Source of the DNA: Patescibacteria group bacterium
GTDB lineage: Bacteria > Patescibacteriota > Patescibacteriia > JAXHNJ01
Length of the DNA stretch: 64,000 nucleotides
Direction of reading: 5' to 3'
NCBI GenBank assembly: GCA_041649715.1
Contig: JBAZMP010000001.1
Span: forward strand, 436,638 to 500,637
The notes under the pieces were generated by a model, which saw nothing but the letters and a program-made list of their open reading frames with translations, ran no database searches and was not told where the DNA came from. Of the stretch, positions 18,712 to 45,606 are shown in pieces; the first letter of the stretch is position 1; every line of letters begins with the position of its first letter. The position numbers were made by a program, and so were the translations under genes.

Positions 18712-18973
18712 TAATAGTAATAAGATGCAGTATATTTGCCTCTTGACATTTTTTATTAATTGATTTTATTCCTAAAATAAGCTAAAATTATTGAGTTCCT
18801 TTCACGACAAAAAAATAATAAAAGAAAGATAATTTTCACACGAAGTTTAGATTCACATATTTTTGGCTCTAATTATTGAAAAATAAAAATACAAATTTAT
18901 CTTATAAAATTTCGAAAGTATTTTGAAAAATAATACTCAACAAAAAACAATTTATTTTATTTAATAATATAGT

Positions 18974-34772: not shown

Positions 34773-36182
34773 ATGGATATTACGTTAGATTTTTCCACTG
34801 GCGGTTATGCGGACTCCTATTTAGGTCCGTTCTATACTTTGTGGATAATTATTGCTCATGGCGGTTGGGTCGCCCTCGTCATTGCTTTCATTATCGGTTT
34901 TTTCTTGCTTTGGTTGGAATGGCGGCGCAATCTGTTTGACGCCAAGGTAAAATTTATCTTGTTGGCCATTGATATTCCTAAGGAAAATGAGCAGACGCCC
35001 AAAGCCGTGGAAAACATATTTTCACACTTGCACGGCATTCAAAAAAGAGGCAATTTTATTGAAAAGTATATTGGTGGTTACACGCAGCAGTGTTTTTCTT
35101 TGGAGATTATCAGTATCGGCGGATATATCCAATTTCTTATCCGGACACCGGAGGACTGGCGAGATTTAGCCGAAGCCGCCATCTACGCCCAATACCCCAA
35201 TGCGGAAATTACTGAAGTGGAAGATTACACGAAAGATATCAAGATCAAGTTTCCTAATGATGATTATGACATTTGGGGGACGCACATGACCCTAGAGAAA
35301 AAAGACGTATATCCCATTAAAACTTACGTATCTTTCGAAGATCCTTCCACAAAAGAAACGTTTAAAGATCCCATGGCTTCTTTGCTGGAAATAATGAGCC
35401 GTTTAAAAGAGGGGGAGCAGATTTGGATCCAGATGGTAATTTCTCCTGAAGGGAGCAAGGAATGGCGTGATTCCGGTATTAGGGTTATTAAAAAGCTGAT
35501 CGGCGCCAAAACAGAGAGTAAAGGAAAGGATTTATTTTGGCTGCCTAAAAATGTCATCCACGGGGTTAGCGAATCGTTATATGCTTCTATTATCTCCCCA
35601 TCTGATTTATACGGAAGTACCGCCCAAAAGGAGATTCTAAGATGGCCGACCATGATTCAACATTTATCTCCCTCGGAAAGATCGGTCGTGGAGGCGGTCG
35701 GCATAAAAATTTCCAAAATCGCCTTCAAAACAAAAATGAGGGTCATCTACTTGGGCAAAAAAGAAGTTTTCAGCAAAAATCGTTTTGTGCCGGCCATTAT
35801 GGGAGCCCTTAAACAATATAATACTCTGGATATCAACGGTTTAAAGGCCGATGCCAAAACCAAGACCAAGGTGGATTATCCGCCGATAAAGTCGATTATA
35901 GAATGGCGCCAGAACCGGAGAAAATGGCGGGTCATGTGGGGCTATAAATACCGGAGCAGCACGCGCGGGCGTTGCAAGTTTGTTTTAAATATCGAGGAAC
36001 TGGCTACTCTTTTTCATTTTCCGATCATGACGGTGAAAGCTCCGATGGTTAAGAAAACGGAGGCGCGCAAAGCAGAACCGCCGGTCTCTCTGCCCTTGGA
36101 GCAGGCTTACCCCCTTCATAAAAAAAGCGAGGAAGAAATAAGCGAAGAGGAAAAAATTCCCCAGAATATTCCCTTTATTTAA
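34773..36182 (+). CDS. Membrane-anchored hypothetical protein, the partner of the downstream ATPase.
   Basis: N-terminal TM helix or helices (WIIIAHGGWVALVIAFIIGFFLLWL), then a 400 aa soluble domain with no recognised motif. It ends 6 nt before the ATPase gene. Confidence 0.5.
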   Translation: MDITLDFSTGGYADSYLGPFYTLWIIIAHGGWVALVIAFIIGFFLLWLEWRRNLFDAKVKFILLAIDIPKENEQTPKAVENIFSHLHGIQKRGNFIEKYIGGYTQQCFSLEIISIGGYIQFLIRTPEDWRDLAEAAIYAQYPNAEITEVEDYTKDIKIKFPNDDYDIWGTHMTLEKKDVYPIKTYVSFEDPSTKETFKDPMASLLEIMSRLKEGEQIWIQMVISPEGSKEWRDSGIRVIKKLIGAKTESKGKDLFWLPKNVIHGVSESLYASIISPSDLYGSTAQKEILRWPTMIQHLSPSERSVVEAVGIKISKIAFKTKMRVIYLGKKEVFSKNRFVPAIMGALKQYNTLDINGLKADAKTKTKVDYPPIKSIIEWRQNRRKWRVMWGYKYRSSTRGRCKFVLNIEELATLFHFPIMTVKAPMVKKTEARKAEPPVSLPLEQAYPLHKKSEEEISEEEKIPQNIPFI

Positions 36183-36187
36183 CACCT

Positions 36188-37897
36188 ATGACCTATCAGT
36201 CAAATACAACCGCCGATGACGTTACCCCGTTCGGCCTGACCAACTTTAGGAATCTCAGGCGGAAATTCGGCATTAAAACCGACGATCGACGCCGGCACAT
36301 GTATCTTATCGGAAAAACCGGTATGGGCAAATCGACGGTCATTGAAAACATGATTATTGATGATATCAAAAAGGGCAAAGGAGTGGCCCTGATCGATCCC
36401 TTGGGCGACCTAGTTGAAAAAGTGATAGATTTTATTCCGAGTTACCGGGTTAATGACGTCGTGTATTTCAACCCCTCGGATCTGGATTATCCCATTGCCT
36501 TTAACGTCCTTGAGTCAATTGATCCGACTCATCACCATTTAATAACTTCCGGTTTGATCGCCGTCTTTAAAAAAATCTGGGTCGATTCCTGGGGCCCACG
36601 TTTGGAGTATGTTTTGCGCAACACTATTTTGGCTCTTTTAGAATATCCGGGCAGCACATTACTGGGAGTGACGCGTCTGCTTGTGGACAAGGATTACCGC
36701 CGCAAAGTTGTCAGCCGTCTGACCGATCCGATCGTCAAAGCCTTCTGGCTGGACGAATATTCGGCCTATTCTAATCAGTTCCGCACCGAAGCGATCTCGC
36801 CTATTCAAAATAAAGTCGGACAGTTTTTGTCCAGCTCGGTAATAAGGAATATCGTGGGTCAGTCAAAAAGCACCATTGATATGCGAGAGATCATGGATAA
36901 CGGGAAAATCCTCCTTATGAATTTGGCCAAGGGTAGGATAGGCGAGGATAATTCTTCCTTGTTAGGCGCTATGATGGTGACAAAAATACAATTAGCGGCC
37001 ATGAGCCGGGTAGACACCCCAGAAGAACAAAGACGCGATTTTTATCTTTATGTCGATGAATTTCAGAATTTTGCTACGGAGAGTTTTGCCACGATTCTTT
37101 CCGAAGCGAGAAAATACCGGTTAAACCTGACCATTGCTCATCAATATATAGAACAACTGGATGAGAAAGTAGCGGCGGCTGTTTTCGGCAATGTGGGGAC
37201 CTTGGTGGTATTCCGTGTCGGGGCGGCCGACGCCGAATTCTTGCTCAAGGAATTTGAGCCGATCTTTACAGAAACGGACTTGGTCAATCTGACCAAGTTT
37301 GAGATATATTTAAAACTGATGATTGATGGTGTTTCCTCCGATCCCTTTTCCGCCCTTACCTTACCGCCTTTGCATGAGCAGGAAAATAATCATGAAAAAA
37401 TAATCTTGGTTTCACGGGAAAGATACACCAAGCCAAGGAAGGAAGTAGAGGAAAAAATTACTCGGTGGAGCGGCGTGGACGACATGTTCCGGGAAACGGC
37501 TCAGGAGGAAAATCGTGCGGAAGAAAGAAATCGTCCGGGCCGTAATTTTGAAGGCGGTAAAAGATTTAAACAGGGGGCGAGGTTTCCGGAAAAAGCTCGA
37601 CCCCAAGAAGAAGGCGGCCGGGAAGAAGAGCCGAAAATTGACCTAAGCAAGGCTAAACTGGAGCCGGTGGCCAGAGAAATAAATGAACCCCCCATTTCTT
37701 TAAGCGAGGCCTTAGCCCGCGGTTCAATTTCTTTCGGCGGAAAAAGTCAAAAGCCATTTCCCTCCCCGTCGCCTGATAGCCGTCCGGCAACCTATGCCCC
37801 GCCTGCCCGGTCAAATATTAACCCCAAAGATAACAGTTATGGATCACCTCAACCCTTAAGACGAGGTCAGGTGGTAAAATTTAACCCTAAATTTTGA
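36188..37897 (+). CDS. FtsK/HerA/VirD4-superfamily P-loop NTPase (DUF87/TraD-like) with a long disordered R/E/G/P-rich C-terminal tail.
   Basis: Walker A LIGKTGMGKST, then DPLGDL and YFNPSD...FNVL motifs reminiscent of VirD4/HerA. Walker B LYVDEFQNF. The C-terminal 140 aa are low-complexity. Confidence 0.6.
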   Translation: MTYQSNTTADDVTPFGLTNFRNLRRKFGIKTDDRRRHMYLIGKTGMGKSTVIENMIIDDIKKGKGVALIDPLGDLVEKVIDFIPSYRVNDVVYFNPSDLDYPIAFNVLESIDPTHHHLITSGLIAVFKKIWVDSWGPRLEYVLRNTILALLEYPGSTLLGVTRLLVDKDYRRKVVSRLTDPIVKAFWLDEYSAYSNQFRTEAISPIQNKVGQFLSSSVIRNIVGQSKSTIDMREIMDNGKILLMNLAKGRIGEDNSSLLGAMMVTKIQLAAMSRVDTPEEQRRDFYLYVDEFQNFATESFATILSEARKYRLNLTIAHQYIEQLDEKVAAAVFGNVGTLVVFRVGAADAEFLLKEFEPIFTETDLVNLTKFEIYLKLMIDGVSSDPFSALTLPPLHEQENNHEKIILVSRERYTKPRKEVEEKITRWSGVDDMFRETAQEENRAEERNRPGRNFEGGKRFKQGARFPEKARPQEEGGREEEPKIDLSKAKLEPVAREINEPPISLSEALARGSISFGGKSQKPFPSPSPDSRPATYAPPARSNINPKDNSYGSPQPLRRGQVVKFNPKF

Positions 37898-39749: not shown

Positions 39750-41156
39750 ATGCTTAAGCTCTATAATTCATTAGGAAATAAAATTCAGGCCTTTAAGCCC
39801 ATTAAAGGGGGACAAGTGACCATATACAGCTGCGGACCGACAGTTTACGGCCGGGCCCATATCGGTAATCTTTCGTCTTTCTTATTTTCCGATCTGCTTA
39901 AAAGATATCTTAGGTACCGTGGTTACAAAGTTGCCCATGCCATGAACCTGACCGACGTTGATGATAAAACCATTAAAGGCAGCCAGCAAGCGCATCTCCC
40001 TCTGGAAACCTATACCGCGCCGTTTATAGCCGGTTTTTTCAAAGATTTAAGGGATCTAAATATAGCCCCAGCCGATTATTATCCTCGGGCGACGCAGTAT
40101 GTTCCTAAAATGGTGGAATTAGTGAAATTGCTTTTAGTCAATGGCAGCGCTTATCGGGGTCAAGATAATTCCATTTATTTTAATATAAAAAGCTTTCCGA
40201 GATACGGACAGCTGATTAATCTAAAAAAACAACGCTTGAAAGATGGCGCTAGGATTTCTTCTGACGACTATGACAAGGAACAAGCCAGTGATTTTGTCTT
40301 ATGGAAAGCCTGGCAACCTTCTGACGGTGATATTTTTTGGGACACAGACATAGGTAAGGGACGGCCAGGCTGGCATTTGGAATGTTCCGTGATGTCCACC
40401 TCGTTGTTAGGTAAAACCATCGATATCCATACCGGCGGGATTGATTTAAAATTTCCCCATCATAGCAATGAGATCGCCCAAAGTGAGTCCGCTTACAAGC
40501 GATTATTCGTCCGTTACTGGCTTCACCGGGCTTTCCTGCAGATGGGGCGGGAGAGGATGGCTAAACGTTTAGGCAACGTCTTAAATCTGACGGATTTGGT
40601 GAAACAGGGTCATTCACCGCGGGCTTTTCGTTTCTTGATTTTAACCAATCATTATCGGACACCCCTGATTTTTGCCGAAAAAACCCTGGTCTATGCCGAA
40701 AATTCCCTAAAGACAATCGATGAATTTGTCGGACGGCTAGAAAAAATTATTTCTGCTGGGGGCCAATACCGCTCTTCAAAGGATATTTTGAAATTTAAAA
40801 AAGAATTCATTAAAAATCTAGATTCGGACTTGAATTCTCCCAAAGCAATTGCCTTGCTGTTTGATTATATTCGAAAAATCAACATTCAAATAAATAAAGA
40901 AAGACTGTCAGTTAAAGAAGCAAAGATAATTCTAAATTTTCTTAAAGATATTGACCGGGTCTGGGGTTTTATTTTCCCGCTAGAAAATAGACGGGAATTA
41001 GCAGATGAAGAAAAAATACTTTTAGAGGCAAGAAAGAACGCTCGTCAAAACAAGGATTTTGCAAAAAGTGATCAAATCCGCCAAGAATTGCTGAAAAAGG
41101 GGGTAGAAGTGCGAGATGGCAAAGATGGAGAACAGACGTGGGTGTTTTTAAAATAA
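39750..41156 (+). CDS. cysS: Cysteinyl-tRNA synthetase.
   Basis: Class I HIGN motif (GRAHIGN), zinc-binding Cys/His, and a KMSKS-like motif (MAKRLGN). Confidence 0.9.
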   Translation: MLKLYNSLGNKIQAFKPIKGGQVTIYSCGPTVYGRAHIGNLSSFLFSDLLKRYLRYRGYKVAHAMNLTDVDDKTIKGSQQAHLPLETYTAPFIAGFFKDLRDLNIAPADYYPRATQYVPKMVELVKLLLVNGSAYRGQDNSIYFNIKSFPRYGQLINLKKQRLKDGARISSDDYDKEQASDFVLWKAWQPSDGDIFWDTDIGKGRPGWHLECSVMSTSLLGKTIDIHTGGIDLKFPHHSNEIAQSESAYKRLFVRYWLHRAFLQMGRERMAKRLGNVLNLTDLVKQGHSPRAFRFLILTNHYRTPLIFAEKTLVYAENSLKTIDEFVGRLEKIISAGGQYRSSKDILKFKKEFIKNLDSDLNSPKAIALLFDYIRKINIQINKERLSVKEAKIILNFLKDIDRVWGFIFPLENRRELADEEKILLEARKNARQNKDFAKSDQIRQELLKKGVEVRDGKDGEQTWVFLK

Positions 41157-41710
41157 ATCATTATATGCCAGAAAATATCGAAAATGAACCGGTGGAATTG
41201 GATATGTTAGCTACTGACCCTCTTGAACTGGCCAAAAGCCGTATTGCCGCTGATTTTATCAAAAGGGAGCAGGAAAGATATATCGAAATCACGAAAAATA
41301 CGTCTCATGTGTCAGAGGGGCTGAAAAGTGTTTTTATCCGTAAGATACAGAGAATGCTCGAAACGCCGGTAAGTTTAAAGTATAATAAATAAGCAAATAA
41401 TCAAAAATACTTAAAGCTTAAACGCTTGTTTTTGATTACCCTTGACATTTTCAGCCGGCCTGCCAAAATAAAAGCAGGGGAGGATGTCCACACGCCCTTT
41501 ATCAGCCGATAAGGGGTTAAACCGACGTTAAATCGCCGAAAAGACGAAGAGAGAGTTGATTTCAAAGGAGTGAGCTAGGGCGAAAGAAAAAATATGAAAT
41601 GGTGACGTATCAGAACGTCACAAAAGCCACTCCCATGAGAGATATTCTCTCAAGTCCTGGGTATCCTAAACGCCCACCACATAATTGTACATTTTCGCAT
41701 ATTCTTCTAA

Positions 41711-41739
41711 AGACGAGCCTAAAAACTCGTCTTTTTTTT
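41711..41739 (+). terminator. Rho-independent terminator that closes the 41440-41740 hairpin-rich non-coding segment.
   Basis: Stem AGACGAG/CTCGTCT followed by TTTTTTTT. Confidence 0.6.
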
Positions 41740-41746
41740 ATCCACA
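41738..41746 (+). promoter_or_regulatory. Perfect DnaA-box consensus TTATCCACA, 10 nt upstream of a -35 element.
   Basis: Exact 9-mer. It overlaps the T-run of the preceding terminator and immediately precedes the TTGACA at 41756. Confidence 0.4.
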
Positions 41747-41755
41747 AGTTAGGTC

Positions 41756-41783
41756 TTGACAAAATTTTTATTTCGTGTATAAT
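41756..41783 (+). promoter_or_regulatory. Sigma70-type promoter (TTGACA, 16 nt spacer, TATAAT) driving the downstream non-coding transcript.
   Basis: TTGACAaaatttttatttcgtgTATAAT. No credible ORF follows for about 600 nt. Confidence 0.55.
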
Positions 41784-41789
41784 GATTGG

Positions 41790-42380
41790 TTGTTTTGACA
41801 ACTTGTGCTTTAGCACCTTAAACCCACCCTTTTATGCCAAGCTCAAGAGAGAGGGCTAATTAACTAAGATTTCTCTCTAGAAAGGAGAAAAGCTTGCGTC
41901 TGTATAGGGTTTGGCTGACCCTAGTCATGGTAAGGCAGAATCCTGATGCCTGAATAAGGATTGGGATAGCCTGAAACTGACGGCAAGACTGTCAGTAGAT
42001 CGGGAAGACCGGTTACATGGCATAAGGACGCTACTACCTTTCTTCTTCTCGGGCGTTCCGTCAGTATTACGCCCAAACGTAGATAAATAAGCCACTGGAT
42101 TGGTTAGAGACAATAGCTCTCTTCCCAAACAGTAAAATACTGGTACCGGTATCATACCCGAAGCCATCGGTCGGCTGCGTGTAAATAACCGGTTTGTCCG
42201 AGTGACAAGCCAAAACTTTAGGGGGTGGCACCGTCTTTGTTCCGTCGAGGCTAGGCCCCTCGTATAGCCAGTGGATTCGTCCGTTGGCGGAAAAAAGGAA
42301 CAAATATTAAATCAATATCATGCACGAGTTTTTCGACACAGTGATTCGGCGGACTTCATAGGAAGTCCGCCTCATTTTTT
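41790..42380 (+). ncRNA. Candidate structured non-coding RNA. Its core, about 41960-42200, carries RNase P RNA (rnpB)-like P4 motifs. The exact ends are uncertain.
   Basis: The segment has its own promoter and terminator (42348-42380), a higher GC content than neighbouring spacers, and many hairpins. GGGAAGACCGGUUACAUGGCAUAAGG (42002-42027) resembles the RNase P GGAAAGUCCGGGCUCCAUAGGGCA. AAUAACCGGUUUGUC (42184-42198) resembles the P4 3' strand AGAACCCGGCUUAUC. GGUCGGCUGCGUG resembles the P15 GGUAGGCUGCUUG. The six-frame ORFs here are short and lie in conflicting frames. Confidence 0.35.
42348..42380 (+). terminator. Rho-independent terminator.
   Basis: Stem GGCGGACTT/AAGTCCGCC followed by a T6 run. 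Confidence 0.65.
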
Positions 42381-42526
42381 ATCTTGACAAATATATATTG
42401 CTAGGTTTATGGCATATTATATAATATAAATGACTCAACATTAATGAAAAAAACATGTTTGAGCCGTGTCCAACCTGCGGCAATGATCCTTGCACTTGCT
42501 AGGCATTGTCAGCAGTAAAACAAAAA

Positions 42527-42554
42527 ACCTCTTAAATAAGCAAGAGGTTTTTTG
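42527..42554. terminator. Hairpin terminator with an A-run upstream and a T-run downstream (bidirectional).
   Basis: Stem ACCTCTT/AAGAGGT, then TTTTTT. Confidence 0.55.
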
Positions 42555-42618
42555 TCGTTTATCTTTTAAAAAAGGTCAAAGACTGCTATAATTAAACCAT
42601 TATTATTAATGGTAAGAA

Positions 42619-43242
42619 ATGAACAAGCTATTTTTGGACATTGAAACAATTCCGGCGGATAAAAAAGTCTGGGCAAAAGTCGAAAAAGACCTGCAGCTTA
42701 AGTATGAGTTAAAAAACAAGAAGCCTTTTAATAAAGAGGATTTATACGCCAGAACCGCCCTGGACGGGACTTATGGCCGGATCTTATGTCTGGGCTATCT
42801 TAAAGAACCGCCGTCAAAAAGCACGGCCAATATTCTTTATGGTCCGGAAAAAGACATCTTAAAAAACTTTTGGGATCTGGCCCGAGATGTGAATCTGTTT
42901 ATCGGCCACAACATCATGGATTTTGACCTTAATTTTATTTATAAGCGGTCTATTATCTGGGGAGTACCGCCAACAAAGGATCTAAGCTTTGCCCGTTATC
43001 GCCATGATCCGATATTTGACACGATGCGCGAATGGGATAAATGGCTTTCCAGTTCTCAGATAAGCTTGGACCGTTTGGCAAAAATATTGGGACTTAAATC
43101 TTCTAAGGGCGAATTAGACGGTTCAAGAGTTTACGAATACTATCAAAAAGGGAAGTTTAAGGAAGTATATCAGTATTGCATGGCGGATGTTGAAGTGACC
43201 AGACAAATCTACCAAAAAATGACCTTTAGCCGCGAGATATGA
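42619..43242 (+). CDS. Predicted 3'-5' exonuclease (DEDD/RNase H-like, PolB-exonuclease-like).
   Basis: N-terminal LFLDIETIP Exo I-like motif, and a size and pattern like the PolB-exo-like standalone exonucleases. Confidence 0.55.
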   Translation: MNKLFLDIETIPADKKVWAKVEKDLQLKYELKNKKPFNKEDLYARTALDGTYGRILCLGYLKEPPSKSTANILYGPEKDILKNFWDLARDVNLFIGHNIMDFDLNFIYKRSIIWGVPPTKDLSFARYRHDPIFDTMREWDKWLSSSQISLDRLAKILGLKSSKGELDGSRVYEYYQKGKFKEVYQYCMADVEVTRQIYQKMTFSREI

Positions 43243-44054
43243 TTTACGCGCCAAAATTTTCCGTAATTTTGCCGACCTATAATCGCGGCTATATCTTATG
43301 GCGGGCCATTCAATCGGTACTCGGCCAAACGTACCCTTTTTTTGAGTTGGTGATTATAGACGACGGTTCAAGCGACGATACGCAAAAAACAGTTAAGGTC
43401 TTCCGTGACCCCAGAATTATCTATTTTAAAAACAGAAAAAGACAGGGTGTGTCGGCAGCCAGAAATAAAGGACTAAAGAAGGCGAGGGGGGAATATATTG
43501 CCTATTTGGATTCGGACAACGAATGGCACAAGGATTTTTTGGAAAGCATGCTTTCCGCCATTGCAAAATATCCGAAAAAAGTTCTGTTTTTTTGTAAAAA
43601 GAATTATCGCTTGAAGTTATCGGAAAAAGACAAGATTGAGAGGATGATTCGCGATGAGTTTTATGGCCATAAGAAATATTTCGATTTAAAGAGGCTCTGG
43701 CAGCGTAAGATCATTATAGACACGAATACTTTTGTCCACAAAAAGAGCCTGCTGGACAAGATAGGTCGCTGGGATGAAAAAATCGATTTTTGGGAAGACT
43801 ATGAATTTACTTTGCGCGTTTCCCGCTATTTTCCCCAGGGAATAATGTATTTAAATCGGGCCCTGGTTGATTATGAACAGACTCTGGATTTTAAAAGTTT
43901 TTCTGATGAAGTGAGGCGTTGGGAAAAAGCGGAAGAATATATTTTCAAAAAACACGAAGATTATCCTTTAATAAAAGAGGCCAAGTGGTATCCGCCCAAA
44001 GCCTATAAATCAACTGAATCTGTCCTCAAATTTCTGCAGGCTAAAAAGCCCTGA
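43239..44054 (+). CDS. Family 2 glycosyltransferase.
   Basis: SVILPTYNRGYILWRAIQSVLGQTY...ELVIIDDGSSDDT and a DxD (YLDSDN) motif. Confidence 0.8.
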   Translation: MIYAPKFSVILPTYNRGYILWRAIQSVLGQTYPFFELVIIDDGSSDDTQKTVKVFRDPRIIYFKNRKRQGVSAARNKGLKKARGEYIAYLDSDNEWHKDFLESMLSAIAKYPKKVLFFCKKNYRLKLSEKDKIERMIRDEFYGHKKYFDLKRLWQRKIIIDTNTFVHKKSLLDKIGRWDEKIDFWEDYEFTLRVSRYFPQGIMYLNRALVDYEQTLDFKSFSDEVRRWEKAEEYIFKKHEDYPLIKEAKWYPPKAYKSTESVLKFLQAKKP

Positions 44055-44189: not shown

Positions 44190-44309
44190 AAAAAATAAAA
44201 GTCAGGGGCTTGACAAAGAACAATGGCTTGTTAAGCTTAAAGCAGAGGTAAACGCACATATCGTTCATTGAAAGCACACCGACAAAAGGTCTGATCTAAT
44301 CATATAATT

Positions 44310-44510
44310 ATGAAAGGAAAAGACCCTATGTTGTTACAACACATCATCGCAATTATCGCCGGCACCTTTCTCATACTTTTTTCCCTCAATCCCATTCAAC
44401 CCACTCCTCATCATCATTTCGACTTTGTCGACTCTTTTCTCCTCTTTGCCGGCCTTGCCTCTTTTCTCTACGGTGTGCTACACATCGCTCCAATTAACCT
44501 TTCCTTCTGA
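44310..44510 (+). CDS. Small hydrophobic protein, 66 aa, hypothetical.
   Basis: Two predicted TM segments and a HHH stretch, followed by a terminator hairpin. Confidence 0.35.
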   Translation: MKGKDPMLLQHIIAIIAGTFLILFSLNPIQPTPHHHFDFVDSFLLFAGLASFLYGVLHIAPINLSF

Positions 44511-44517
44511 ATCTCAA

Positions 44518-44546
44518 CCCCTAGCGTTCTACGTTAGGGGTTTTCT
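44518..44546 (+). terminator. Rho-independent terminator.
   Basis: Stem CCCCTAGCG/CGTTAGGGG followed by a TTTT run. Confidence 0.55.
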
Positions 44547-44586
44547 CTACATTGAATAATTTTGGCATATAATTTAAGATGTATCT

Positions 44587-45606
44587 ATGAAAGTTAAGTC
44601 TTGTAAAAAAGTTTTTGTCGCCATGTCAGGCGGCGTGGATTCCACGGTCGCCGCTTTATTACTAAAAAAACAGGGTTATCAGGTGATTGGCGTGCATTTT
44701 TTGCTCGCTAAAAGCCAGACTTTGGAAGTAAAAAGGATCTGTCAGAAATTGAAAATCAAACTGTATATTTGGGACTTTCGCCCCCAGTTCAGCAAATCAG
44801 TTATCAAGGATTTTATTACCCAATATAAAGACGGAGTTACGCCCAATCCCTGCGTAATATGCAACCGGATGATAAAATTTGGTTTATTCTACGAAAGGGC
44901 GAAAAAAGCCGGCGCTGATTATATCGCGACTGGTCATTATGTCCAGAAAGCTAAAGTCGGCTCTTGTTATCTTTTAAAAAAGGGGAAAGACTATGATAAA
45001 GACCAGTCATATTTTTTATGGGACCTCAAGCCTTTAGTAATCTCGCATTGCCTTTTTCCACTGGGAAAATTAACAAAAGATAAAGTTAAACGAATAGCCG
45101 CCAAGTATCGGTTACCGAGGGTAAAAAATGAATCCCAAGAAATCTGTTTTATCACTGATAAAATTTGTAATTATCTTTCAAATAATATAAAAAGTCGGCC
45201 GGGGATAATCAGGGATTTTACGAGCAAAAAAAAAGTTGGCCGCCATCAGGGTCTTTTTTTATACACCATTGGTCAGAGAAGCGGTTTGCGCCTGGCCGGC
45301 GGTCCCTGGTTTGTGCTAAAAAAAGATATTTCGAAGAATATCCTCTGGGTGACAAAAGATAGTAAGTCTCTGTTCAGCCTGAAGGCTGAACTTAAAAAGG
45401 TCAATTGGCTCATTACGCCCCCTGAATTTCCCGTTACTTCTGAGGTTAAGCCGCGCTATCGGCATCCTGGCGTTCAAGCAATAATCAAAAAAACCGGGAA
45501 CGGCTGTTGTGTCTCATTTAAAAAACCAGAAAGAGCTTTGACTCCAGGTCAATCAGCTGTTTTTTATAAAGGCGATGAATTATTGGGTGGGGGGATTATC
45601 AAATAA
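44587..45606 (+). CDS. mnmA: tRNA-specific 2-thiouridylase MnmA.
   Basis: PP-loop VAMSGGVDSTVAA, catalytic Cys residues, 339 aa. Confidence 0.9.
   Translation: MKVKSCKKVFVAMSGGVDSTVAALLLKKQGYQVIGVHFLLAKSQTLEVKRICQKLKIKLYIWDFRPQFSKSVIKDFITQYKDGVTPNPCVICNRMIKFGLFYERAKKAGADYIATGHYVQKAKVGSCYLLKKGKDYDKDQSYFLWDLKPLVISHCLFPLGKLTKDKVKRIAAKYRLPRVKNESQEICFITDKICNYLSNNIKSRPGIIRDFTSKKKVGRHQGLFLYTIGQRSGLRLAGGPWFVLKKDISKNILWVTKDSKSLFSLKAELKKVNWLITPPEFPVTSEVKPRYRHPGVQAIIKKTGNGCCVSFKKPERALTPGQSAVFYKGDELLGGGIIK

What the first reader, a model, noticed from the sequence alone, without database searches (positions are those of the whole stretch)
41400..42560. About 1.1 kb non-coding, hairpin-dense locus with its own promoter and terminators; candidate RNase P RNA plus a second structured element
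Between cysS and the exonuclease gene there is no credible ORF. The sequence is richer in GC than the surrounding spacers and is packed with perfect hairpins (GAGAGA-TAT-TCTCTC, GGGCGT...ACGCCC, CTGACGG...CTGTCAG). A sigma70 promoter at 41756-41783 and terminators at 41711-41739 and 42348-42380 delimit at least two transcripts. The segment 42002-42027 and 42184-42198 reproduce the RNase P P4 strands (GGAAAGUCCGGGCUCCAUAGGGCA and AGAACCCGGCUUAUC in E. coli, with CCGGUU substitutions that still pair). The flanking sequence does not obviously fit a type A or B model, and the transcript would be long (about 590 nt). The upstream roughly 300 nt element (41440-41740) is unassigned.
Basis: partly seen in the sequence, partly recalled or inferred. 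Interest (0 to 1): 0.5.

Follow-up and report, generated by a model that had tools for sequence, protein, structure and literature searches.

The report
Lineage-specific structured RNAs, not RNase P
A 1.2-kb gap after cysS in a Patescibacteria genome holds two strongly folded RNA genes, one about 590 nt long and kept with compensating base-pair changes in one related organism, plus a tiny 15-residue cysteine-rich protein gene; the long RNA matches no known RNA family and does not look like RNase P.

Summary
The physical observation holds. Between cysS with a conserved 75-aa ORF and a PolB-exonuclease-like gene lies a GC-enriched, hairpin-dense stretch. It has a perfect sigma-70 promoter (41756-41783) and three intrinsic terminators. 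It resolves into three mini-genes. el1 is about 265 nt (41477-41742). el2 is about 590 nt (41789-42380), with a 16-bp helix closing its 5' and 3' ends. The RNase P reading is not supported. No Rfam family, including RNase P, tmRNA, SRP, 6S, ROOL, GOLLD, HEARO and OLE, reaches even E=10. The 'P4' strands lie in the wrong places relative to the P1- and P3-like helices. The pairing comes from an ACCGGU palindrome that occurs three times. Both RNAs are absent from the same slot in eight syntenic relatives. One closer relative (L152, 79% nt identity) keeps the last 145 nt of el2. In its three-way junction every stem substitution but one, at a helix end, preserves pairing: three compensatory doubles and one G.U to G-C. 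el2 is therefore a real, narrowly distributed structured RNA of an undescribed family. Its function is unknown. Full-length homologues could not be retrieved.

The parts
41165..41392 (+). Conserved 75-aa ORF directly after cysS. It is context and forms the left border of the variable slot.
   Evidence: Three homologues at 60-69% identity (E 1e-17 to 1e-22), always right after cysS. NCBI MFA5070115 / WC528_02435. No Pfam or PHROG family.
41442..41469 (+). Promoter-like site of el1: TTGACA, 16 nt, CAAAAT, with TG before the second hexamer.
   Evidence: 10/12 match plus TG.
41477..41742 (+). el1, a structured RNA of about 265 nt. The ends are inferred from the promoter and terminator. It could also be reached by read-through from cysS/ORF75.
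   Evidence: MFE -81.7 kcal/mol, z=-5.35, 0 of 200 shuffles as good. Long hairpin 41543-41656 and hairpin 41494-41517 with pair probabilities of at least 0.83 (most helices >=0.95). No homologue found.
41709..41734 (+). Intrinsic terminator of el1: a 9-bp stem followed by a T8 run to 41742.
   Evidence: pair probability 0.95.
41756..41783 (+). Promoter of el2: TTGACA, 16 nt, TATAAT.
   Evidence: 12/12 consensus match, the only perfect site in 41000-43000.
41789..42380 (+). el2, a multi-domain structured RNA of about 590 nt. The ends are inferred.
   Evidence: MFE -198.7 kcal/mol, z=-5.05 on the + strand against -2.9 on the - strand. The model has 176 bp including 20 G.U pairs. No Rfam match. 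Its 3' 145 nt are conserved in L152.
41791..41808 (+). el2 closing helix, 5' strand. It pairs with 42322-42340.
   Evidence: 16 bp in three segments, probabilities 0.92-0.97 unconstrained and 0.72-0.97 with the junction constrained. Single-sequence prediction only.
42322..42340 (+). el2 closing helix, 3' strand.
   Evidence: This stretch is only 53% conserved in L152, whose 5' partner is not on the contig.
41824..41832 (+). Second long-range helix, 5' strand (CCACCCUUU). It pairs with 42220-42228 (AGGGGGUGG).
   Evidence: It appears with p=0.91 once the covariation-supported three-way junction is imposed. The constrained energy is -198.6, against -199.1 unconstrained.
41882..42047 (+). el2 5' domain: nested helices B, C and E, hairpin D, and a four-way junction carrying hairpins F, G and H. 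The loops of G and H are CAAGA and GAAGA.
   Evidence: All helices have pair probability 0.88-0.99. Single-sequence prediction.
42000..42015 (+). It is complementary to 42186-42201.
   Evidence: 16 nt with 13 Watson-Crick pairs, 2 G.U and 1 mismatch (I7). It competes with the local hairpins 41998-42014 and 42191-42211. It contains one of three ACCGGT palindromes.
42236..42304 (+). el2 3' three-way junction: helix X 42236-43/42297-304, hairpin Y 42246-50/42258-62, hairpin Z 42267-74/42281-88.
   Evidence: Window against L152: 21 pairs, 97.6% of cells paired. There are 3 pairs with changes on both sides (one per helix) and 1 G.U to G-C change. Slid controls give 29-50% paired and 0 double changes. 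The covariance model finds only these two copies.
42348..42371 (+). Intrinsic terminator of el2: a 10-bp GC-rich stem and AUAG loop, followed after TCA by a T6 run to 42380.
   Evidence: p=1.00. 94% identical in L152, with the stem 10/10.
42398..42425 (+). Promoter-like site of the micro-ORF unit: TTGCTA, 16 nt, TATAAT. A further TTGACA lies at 42384-42389.
   Evidence: 10/12 match. The TATATAATATAA block and the downstream GACTCAACATTAA are conserved in L002, L141 and L152.
42455..42502 (+). Micro-ORF MFEPCPTCGNDPCTC*, 15 aa with four Cys and a CPxCG knuckle.
   Evidence: 96% nt identity in L152. The peptide core is kept with different synonymous codons in 9 loci from several phyla. It is always preceded by 2-8 residues after a candidate in-frame start codon (start unclear in L135) and followed by a stop within 0-2 codons, and in most loci by a hairpin with a T run. 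No curated family and no paper.
42520..42555 (+). Terminator of the micro-ORF unit: a 14-bp stem.
   Evidence: perfect inverted repeat I4.

Best explanation
The spacer after cysS/ORF75 is a variable slot. In this lineage it carries three independent mini-genes on the + strand.

1. el2 (41789-42380) is a genuine non-coding RNA gene. It is transcribed from a consensus promoter and ended by a strong intrinsic terminator. It folds into a closed, multi-domain structure: a 5'/3' closing helix, a second long-range helix, a 5' domain with a four-way junction, several hairpins, and a 3' three-way junction.
2. It belongs to no described RNA family. It is an accessory RNA restricted to a narrow Patescibacteria lineage, not a housekeeping RNA.
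3. Most likely it acts in trans as a stable structured RNA. My preferred reading is a protein-binding or assembly scaffold that uses its repeated elements: three hairpin loops ending in AAGA and three ACCGGU palindromes.
4. el1 (41477-42742 upstream unit, i.e. 41477-41742) is a second structured small RNA of about 265 nt, seen only in this genome.
5. The 15-aa Cys-rich micro-ORF downstream is a separate, widely conserved gene.

Shown: non-coding status, strand, transcription signals, thermodynamic structure, conservation with compensatory changes in the 3' domain, absence from relatives, and lack of any family match.
Inferred: the exact RNA ends, the structure upstream of 42236, trans action, and the scaffold or binding role.
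For: - Transcription signals: a 12/12 promoter and three terminators.
- Structure: z=-5.05 for el2 and -5.35 for el1 on the + strand, weaker on the - strand. Coding flanks are near 0. 20 of 176 modelled pairs are G.U, which would be A.C mismatches on the other strand.
- The end-closing helix has p up to 0.97.
- Not coding. There is no Pfam hit. A six-frame translation against 5.8 billion protein clusters gave nothing at E<=10. The 128-codon antisense frame against 1.84 billion representatives gave one spurious repeat hit. Only one SD-preceded small ORF exists on the + strand, 19 aa long.
- Conservation: L152, at 79% nt identity overall, retains el2's last 145 nt in the same position. The three-way junction shows 3 compensatory double changes, 1 G.U to G-C change and a single unpaired cell at a helix end. 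The terminator is 94% identical, while the linker is only 53% identical.
- Accessory nature: el1 and el2 are absent from the cysS-to-micro-ORF or exonuclease slot in L002, L007, L141/142 and L143, from upstream of the exonuclease in L003, L006 and L153, and from the 132 nt available after ORF75 in L144.
- Repeated elements: ACCGGT occurs 3 times in 186 nt, against 21 in the 64-kb window (Poisson P about 0.001).
Against: - Only one full-length sequence exists, and the single homologue covers just 145 nt. Everything 5' of 42236 is therefore single-sequence prediction.
- Two sequences give little statistical power. In the column-shuffle control 57 of 500 shuffles reach the observed value.
- There are no expression data.
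- No partner protein or target has been identified. The AAGA and ACCGGU motifs could be coincidental, and the palindrome is over-represented across the whole window (21 observed against 8.9 expected).
- el1 has no homologue at all. It could simply be the structured 3' UTR and terminator region of the cysS-ORF75 operon.
- A narrow distribution is also what one expects of a recently acquired selfish or decaying insertion.
Confidence: 0.6

Rival explanations
1. el2 is a highly derived RNase P RNA. The long-range pairing 42000-42015 / 42186-42201 would be P4, and the closing helix would be P1.
For: - A 16-nt long-range complementarity resembles CR-I and CR-V (GGxAAGxCCGG, then CCGG followed by YUURUC) (I7).
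- A P1-like helix closes the two ends.
- RNase P RNAs of the candidate phyla radiation are often diverged. They can lack P12-P14, P16-P18 and the UGG motif, and 10 of 35 were missed until Infernal thresholds were lowered (PMC8172020).
- No rnpB was found elsewhere in this 64-kb window.
Against: - No RNase P model reaches E<=10, about 15-17 bits, even when only 561 nt are searched with lax filters.
- The 5' 'P4' strand is separated from the P3-like hairpin by a domain of about 120 nt. The 3' strand is separated from the P1 3' strand by about 120 nt that include a covariation-supported three-way junction with no RNase P counterpart.
- The order of 3' strands would be P4', P2', P1' rather than P2', P4', P1'.
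- There is no bulged U in the helix.
- The pairing is explained by an ACCGGU palindrome present three times.
- The RNA is about 590 nt.
- It is absent from the same slot in eight syntenic relatives, which is unusual for an essential gene. It could, however, lie elsewhere in those genomes.
Confidence: 0.04
2. el2 is a structured mRNA, for example a type I toxin-like or small-protein transcript. Its ribosome-binding site would be sequestered, and a 5'/3' fold-back would keep it translationally inert, as in hok mRNA. el1 could be the cognate regulator.
For: - One small ORF on the + strand has a good SD: AAAGGAG, 6 nt, then TTG at 41894, 19 aa.
- That SD lies inside helix 41882-41890 / 42039-42047, paired to UUUCUUCUU.
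- The 5'/3' closing helix resembles the fold-back element of hok (own knowledge).
- el1 has a 10/10 complement to the el2 3' closing strand (I18).
- The location is a variable slot.
Against: - The 19-aa product MRLYRVWLTLVMVRQNPDA has only 8 contiguous hydrophobic residues, too few for a membrane toxin.
- It has a TTG start and no homologue.
- About 530 of the 590 nt would be untranslated.
- The conserved part in L152 is the 3' three-way junction, not an ORF.
Confidence: 0.08
3. el1 and el2 are relics of a small mobile or foreign insertion. They are transcribed but have no cellular function.
For: - The slot after cysS/ORF75 carries different cargo in different relatives: nothing (L007, L141/142), two unrelated small ORFs (L002, L143), or an unrelated sequence of about 70% GC (L144).
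- The GC content is about 10 points above the genome.
- The same 10-mer, TCTTGACAAA, lies at both borders of el2 (D8).
Against: - Compensatory substitutions and a 94%-conserved terminator at 79% overall divergence indicate purifying selection on the RNA structure.
- There is no transposase, integrase, terminal inverted repeat or target duplication.
- No match was found in phage, plasmid or IMG/VR collections.
- Elevated GC is typical of structured RNAs in AT-rich genomes.
Confidence: 0.15
4. el1 and/or el2 are cis-acting leaders, such as riboswitches or attenuators. Their terminators would gate read-through into the micro-ORF and exonuclease genes.
For: - Each element ends in an intrinsic terminator upstream of further + strand genes.
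- Alternative pairings exist: 41539-41547 can pair with the 3' arm of the el1 terminator (I23), and the loop of hairpin 42051-74 is complementary to the stem of hairpin 41976-96 (I10).
Against: - Each downstream unit has its own promoter immediately after the terminator.
- The micro-ORF and exonuclease are expressed without el1 or el2 in all other relatives.
- 590 nt is far larger than known riboswitch leaders.
- No Rfam cis-regulatory family matches.
Confidence: 0.05
5. The region encodes a protein on the minus strand, in the 128-codon open frame 41928-42311.
For: An open frame of 128 codons is uncommon in 1 kb of 48% GC sequence.
Against: - No Pfam hit.
- No homologue among 5.8 billion clusters.
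- The only hit among 1.84 billion representatives (E=9e-4) is a spurious ORF across tRNA-linked tandem repeats in a 59% GC contig with no nucleotide similarity.
- The ATG-initiated part is only 80 aa.
- The composition is S/R/L/T/P-rich, and no - strand promoter better than 9/12 exists.
- In L152 the substitutions fit RNA pairing, including G.U pairs specific to the + strand.
Confidence: 0.01

Closest known systems
Bacterial RNase P RNA, type A (Rfam RF00010), including the diverged forms described for the candidate phyla radiation (PMC8172020)
   Same: It is a stable, independently transcribed structured RNA whose 5' and 3' ends pair. It has a long-range helix built on a CCGG core with flanks resembling CR-I and CR-V. 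The host phylum is known for aberrant RNase P RNAs.
   Different: There is no covariance-model match. The helix order and strand adjacencies are wrong. There is no bulged U in the helix. It carries an extra 3' three-way junction and a 5' domain of about 165 nt. It is about 590 nt long. It is not conserved at the locus among relatives.
Large bacterial ncRNAs of unknown or emerging function: ROOL, GOLLD, OLE, HEARO, raiA (Rfam)
   Same: It falls in the same size class (ROOL is about 580 nt and OLE about 610 nt; own knowledge). It has many helices and multi-way junctions and its own promoter and terminator. Its distribution is patchy and lineage-restricted, and it sits in a variable genomic spot. 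Its GC content is elevated in an AT-rich genome.
   Different: There is no sequence or structure match to any of these models at E<=10. There is no adjacent tRNA or prophage context as is typical for ROOL and GOLLD. Only two occurrences are known, so no consensus can be drawn.
hok-type (type I toxin) mRNAs with 5'/3' fold-back
   Same: The ends pair and an internal Shine-Dalgarno sequence is sequestered in a helix. It sits in an accessory, variable locus next to a second small RNA.
   Different: There is no credible hydrophobic toxin ORF and no antisense partner. The conserved part is a non-coding three-way junction.
CPxCG zinc-knuckle / rubredoxin-like metal-binding motifs (for the neighbouring micro-ORF only)
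   Same: It has a CPTCG knuckle plus a CxC, so four cysteines within 11 residues could ligate one metal ion (own knowledge of the motif).
   Different: The whole protein is only 15-22 residues. It matches no Pfam or NCBIfam model and appears in no paper. Metal binding has not been tested.

Membership tests
RNase P RNA (RF00010/RF00011/RF00373 etc.) | Match to the family covariance model | tested here: not met
   No RNase P hit at gathering score in 64 kb. None at E<=10 in 1401 nt or in the 561-nt core. Caveat: diverged CPR forms can score low, and hits below about 15 bits would not be listed.
RNase P RNA | P4 helix with conserved CR-I/CR-V nucleotides and a bulged uridine | tested here: not met
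   Complementary strands exist (I7), but the position equivalent to the bulged U is a paired A (42008-42193). The match rests on an ACCGGU palindrome present 3 times. The comparison with the E. coli sequence is from memory.
RNase P RNA | Helix topology: P3 directly followed by the P4 5' strand; 3' order P2', P4', P1' | tested here: not met
   About 120 nt and a whole domain separate the P3-like hairpin (41846-41878) from 42000. The second long-range helix's 3' strand (42220-28) and a three-way junction lie between the 'P4' 3' strand and the P1 3' strand.
RNase P RNA | Essential, single-copy and present in all relatives; no other rnpB in the genome | tested here: inconclusive
   It is absent from the syntenic slot in eight relatives and present in one. 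The rest of these genomes, and of this MAG, could not be scanned.
RNase P RNA | Cleaves pre-tRNA 5' leaders | not testable with these tools
   This needs an in vitro assay.
ROOL / GOLLD / OLE / HEARO / raiA large ncRNAs | Match to the family covariance model | tested here: not met
   No hit at E<=10.
tmRNA, SRP RNA, 6S RNA | Covariance-model or ARAGORN detection | tested here: not met
   ARAGORN found none in the window. Rfam found none for el1 or el2.
Type I toxin-antitoxin | A small hydrophobic toxin ORF with a ribosome-binding site, plus an antisense or complementary sRNA | tested here: not met
   The only SD-preceded + strand small ORF is 19 aa and is not membrane-like. There is no antisense promoter better than 9/12. 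The 10-nt complementarity between el1 and el2 is suggestive only (I18).
Independent structured ncRNA gene (generic) | Own promoter and terminator, significant strand-specific folding, no coding potential, and structure-preserving substitutions in a homologue | tested here: met
   Covariation is available only for 42236-42304 and only from two sequences.
Mobile element (IS / MITE / integrative island) | Transposase or integrase, terminal inverted repeats, and target-site duplication | tested here: not met
   No such gene within the slot. The repeats found are short and imperfect.

The most novel reading that the evidence does not exclude
el2 is the founding member of a new class of large (about 600 nt), complex-folded bacterial RNA specific to a Patescibacteria lineage. 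It would be comparable in rank to OLE, ROOL or GOLLD. It might self-associate through its three ACCGGU palindromes or act as a ribozyme or ribonucleoprotein core. el1 and the neighbouring CPxCG micro-protein could be functional partners.
Probability: 0.25. Interest if true: 0.75.

Novelty: new member of a known kind. Interest (0 to 1): 0.45.

Why it matters
Bacterial non-coding RNAs longer than about 500 nt with many helices are rare. Those understood so far are ribozymes, ribonucleoprotein cores or self-assembling architectures. Patescibacteria have genomes of about 0.6-1 Mb under strong reduction. A highly expressed 590-nt RNA that is kept with compensatory changes is therefore unlikely to be idle. 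If more members are found, it would add a new large-RNA family from a phylum whose RNA biology is poorly charted. The analysis also removes a tempting but wrong RNase P annotation. It documents a hot spot after cysS where small genes and RNAs turn over. It brings to light an unannotated 15-residue Cys-rich micro-protein conserved across several phyla.

Tried and rejected
- Rfam: searched at gathering score over 64 kb, and in E-value mode on 1.4 kb, on the el2 core and on el1. Only terminator-like or chance hits appeared.
- ARAGORN found nothing.
- blastn of 41400-42400 against the phage and plasmid collections found nothing.
- Spurious-ORF search: a six-frame translation of 41430-42385 against 5.8 billion protein clusters gave nothing at E<=10. 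The 128-aa antisense frame against 1.84 billion representatives gave one hit, P0129. Its contig L154 turned out to be an unrelated 59% GC contig with tRNA-linked 162-nt tandem repeats and no nucleotide similarity.
It gave 9 loci, none with el1 or el2.
- Eight IMG/VR scans with el1 and el2 blocks returned only chance hits.
- Synteny look-ups of exonuclease homologues (L002, L003, L005, L006, L007, L153) and ORF75 homologues (L141-L144) showed no el1 or el2.
- A covariance model of the three-way junction, searched over 186 kb of related loci, found only the window and L152.
- Tandem and direct repeat searches showed no array, which rules out CRISPR-like, TIGR-like or ToxI-like repeat arrays.
- Alternative genetic code: TGA is used as a stop in 5 of 23 long genes, so the code is standard.
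- oriC idea: the single TTATCCACA at 41738-41746 was judged to be chance, with another copy at 18973 and no GC-skew turn here.
- ORF75 against L002's 69-aa ORF: not homologous.
Full report
SOURCE AND GENE MAP
The window comes from a Patescibacteria (candidate phyla radiation, CPR) metagenome-assembled genome. The flanking proteins are NCBI MFA5070113-117 on a 608-kb contig.

The finding lies between two genes. On the left is cysS (39750-41156; Pfam tRNA-synt_1e, E=3e-101). On the right is a PolB-exonuclease-like / RNase H-fold gene (42619-43242).

Directly after cysS is a 75-aa ORF (41165-41392). It is a real gene, with three homologues at 60-69% identity that always follow cysS. The truly gene-free stretch is therefore 41393-42618. 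The genome uses the standard genetic code, with TGA as the stop of 5 of 23 long genes.

CHECK OF THE OBSERVATION
GC content rises to 0.445-0.51 over 41800-42400, against 0.32-0.40 around it.

The consensus scan finds one perfect sigma-70 promoter, TTGACA-16-TATAAT at 41756-41783. It also finds a 10/12 promoter with an extended -10 at 41442-41469, a 10/12 promoter at 42398-42425, and three strong + strand terminators at 41709-41734, 42348-42371 and 42520-42555. Both classes are enriched over shuffles: 11 promoter-like sites against 4.2+/-1.9, and 6 terminator-like sites against 2.0+/-1.6.

Folding results:
- The 586-nt interval 41790-42375 folds at -198.7 kcal/mol, z=-5.05 on the + strand and only -2.9 on the - strand.
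- The interval 41475-41740 gives z=-5.35.
- A 200-nt sliding scan shows consistently negative z from 41500 to 42700, and values around 0 in the coding flanks.

No ORF of 30 aa or more in the gap has a Pfam hit. A six-frame translation finds nothing among 5.8 billion protein clusters.

ANATOMY: THREE MINI-GENES, ALL ON THE + STRAND
(a) el1, about 41477-41742. It contains a perfect 10-bp hairpin (41494-41517), a long interrupted hairpin (41543-41656) and a terminator. Because there is no terminator between ORF75 and 41709, el1 may also be reached by read-through from the cysS operon.

(b) el2, about 41789-42380.
- Its first 20 nt pair with 42322-42340, just before the terminator: 16 bp, p up to 0.97.
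- Inside is a 5' domain (41882-42047) of nested helices that end in a four-way junction. Adjacent hairpins there carry CAAGA and GAAGA loops.
- Further hairpins follow, then a 3' three-way junction (42236-42304).
- When that junction is imposed, the energy is unchanged (-198.6 against -199.1). A further long-range helix, 41824-41832 / 42220-42228, then appears with p=0.91.
- The model has 176 pairs, 20 of them G.U. This fits the strand asymmetry in z-scores.

(c) A micro-ORF unit. It comprises a promoter, the conserved 5' UTR block GACTCAACATTAA, the ORF at 42455-42502 encoding MFEPCPTCGNDPCTC*, and a terminator at 42520-42555.

COMPARATIVE EVIDENCE
Syntenic relatives were fetched through homologues of the exonuclease and of ORF75.
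- L007 and L141/L142: the micro-ORF unit follows cysS or ORF75 directly.
- L002 and L143: two unrelated small ORFs sit in the slot.
- L144: an unrelated stretch of about 70% GC sits there.
- L003, L006 and L153: neither RNA lies upstream of the exonuclease.
The only part of the spacer shared with these relatives is the micro-ORF unit, for example 83% identity to L002. The slot is therefore variable, and el1 and el2 are accessory.

One closer relative exists: L152 (ENA ERZ27247989, a 1270-nt contig). Its exonuclease falls in the same 90%-identity cluster as the window's. It aligns to window 42238-43475 at 79% nt identity. Its first 150 nt are the 3' end of el2, followed by the micro-ORF unit, the exonuclease and GT2.

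Identity by segment:
- three-way junction: 78-86%
- linker and P1 3' strand: 53%
- terminator: 94%
- micro-ORF: 96%
- exonuclease: 82%, with 80 of 113 differences at codon position 3

Within the three-way junction, every stem substitution but one preserves pairing (the exception is the terminal pair 42236-42304, unpaired in L152):
- helix X: U-A to C-G
- hairpin Y: G-C to A-U
- hairpin Z: G-C to A-U, plus G.U to G-C
Overall 97.6% of cells are paired, against 29-50% when partners are slid, and there are 3 double changes against 0 in the slid controls. With only two sequences the shuffle control is weak (57 of 500). Even so, the pattern of one compensatory change in each of three helices, with the other changes falling in loops and junctions, is what selection on RNA structure produces. 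A conserved U.G pair and the G.U to G-C change are specific to the + strand. A covariance model of the junction finds only these two copies in 186 kb of related loci.

THE RNase P HYPOTHESIS
No RNase P model, and no other Rfam family, reaches gathering score anywhere in the 64 kb. None reaches E<=10 in E-value mode on 1.4 kb or on the 561-nt core.

Four points count against it:
1. It is one of 29 inverted repeats of similar quality in the 1.5 kb examined.
2. It is built on ACCGGU, a self-complementary hexamer present three times in el2 (42008, 42145, 42188). Any two copies can pair.
3. It has no bulged uridine.
4. The strands are in the wrong places. In RNase P the P4 5' strand follows P3 directly, and the 3' strand lies between P2' and P1'. 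Here about 120 nt of structured RNA intervene on each side, including the covariation-supported three-way junction.

Lui et al. (PMC8172020) show that CPR RNase P RNAs can be diverged and fall below Rfam cut-offs. The negative model result is therefore not absolute. Those RNAs were still retrieved by RF00010 at lowered thresholds and kept the canonical core. I put the RNase P reading at about 4%. Scanning the rest of the MAG for rnpB would settle it.

OTHER IDENTITIES CONSIDERED
- tmRNA, SRP RNA, 6S RNA, ROOL, GOLLD, HEARO, OLE, raiA, group I and II introns, riboswitches and T-box: no match.
- Repeat arrays of the CRISPR, TIGR or ToxI kind: none.
- A mobile element: no transposase, inverted repeats or target duplication, and no match in phage, plasmid or IMG/VR data.
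- A minus-strand protein in the 128-codon open frame: no homologues. The single E=9e-4 hit is a spurious ORF over tRNA-linked tandem repeats in an unrelated contig.
- A type I toxin mRNA: the only SD-preceded small ORF is 19 aa and not membrane-like. Its SD is sequestered and the RNA ends pair as in hok, so I keep this reading at about 8%.

MOST LIKELY MECHANISM
Shown: el2 is a discrete, strongly promoted and strongly terminated + strand RNA. It has a closed multi-domain fold, and at least its 3' domain is under selection for structure. It is accessory and lineage-restricted.

Inferred: it acts in trans as a stable structured RNA. Two features suggest a binding or assembly scaffold. Three hairpin loops end in AAGA, and there are three ACCGGU palindromes. 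Two alternative pairings hint at conformational switching and at cross-talk between el1 and el2: the loop of hairpin 42051-74 against the stem of hairpin 41976-96, and the el1 terminator against the el2 P1 3' strand (I10 and I18). None of this is tested. el1 has no homologue and may simply be a structured 3' region of the cysS-ORF75 transcript that also carries its own promoter.

NOVELTY AND SCORE
el2 matches no described family and has the size and complexity of the rare large bacterial ncRNAs. Only one full-length and one partial copy are known. I rate it as a new family within the known kind 'independently transcribed structured bacterial ncRNA of unknown function', with interest 0.45.

The main limitation is procedural. 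Repeating the search with those blocks is the obvious next step.

Noticed in passing
window 42384-42555 (ORF 42455-42502); also L002 4772-4947, L006 2996-3171, L007 3642-3813, L141/L142, L152 160-340, L128-L136: This is an unannotated micro-protein gene. The peptide is M-x-(E/D/G/T)-P/T-CPTCGNDPC(T/S)C, 15-22 aa. In most loci a terminator-like hairpin with a T run follows the stop; a promoter was examined only in the window's clade. Different synonymous codons are used in Patescibacteria, Peribacteria and Levyibacteriota MAGs and in two MAGs labelled Gammaproteobacteria. No Pfam or NCBIfam family and no paper was found. The CPxCG plus CxC pattern suggests a minimal metal-binding knuckle. In this clade it always sits just upstream of the exonuclease gene.
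   Followed up: partly
window 41165-41392: A 75-aa ORF (MFA5070115) is conserved at 60-69% identity in three short metagenomic contigs, always immediately after cysS. The window copy has an 8-residue deletion relative to the 83-aa homologues. It matches no known domain.
   Followed up: partly
slot after cysS/ORF75: L002 4238-4770, L143 1051-1111, L144 481-612: The same intergenic slot holds different cargo in different relatives. L002 and L143 have two unrelated small ORFs (69 and 54 aa) with their own promoter. L144 has an unrelated stretch of about 70% GC (fold z only -1.7). L007, L141 and L142 have nothing. It looks like a hot spot for turnover of small genes and RNAs.
   Followed up: partly
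window 44300-44600: The 532-nt spacer upstream of mnmA has strongly negative GC skew (down to -0.49) and + strand fold z of -3.9 and -3.2. It also contains a 66-aa hydrophobic ORF (44310-44510). It could be another small RNA or a small membrane-protein gene.
   Followed up: no
window 41754-41763 and 42382-42391: The identical 10-mer TCTTGACAAA forms the -35 region of the el2 promoter and lies at the head of the micro-ORF unit, 628 nt apart. The two copies therefore bracket el2. This could be a recombination or duplication scar, or only a shared promoter context.
   Followed up: no
window 1-64000: No tRNA, tmRNA or Rfam family at gathering score occurs anywhere in the 64 kb. Nearly all genes from about 7.8 kb to 47.6 kb are on the + strand, and genes before about 7.9 kb are on the - strand. 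This is a divergence point that might mark the replication origin.
   Followed up: no
window 34773-37897: A DUF8128 protein and a TrwB/TraG-like coupling ATPase (T4SS-DNA_transf, TrwB_AAD_bind) lie upstream of the histidine kinase, the two response regulators and cysS. This may be a conjugation or DNA-uptake module.
   Followed up: no
L154 1000-1700 (JGI Ga0181520_10127870): This unrelated 59% GC contig has at least three tandem repeats of about 162 nt. Each contains a tRNA-3'-half-like segment, and the array lies next to a complete tRNA. A gene caller read it as a 194-aa 'protein' (P0129). It surfaced only as a false positive.
   Followed up: partly
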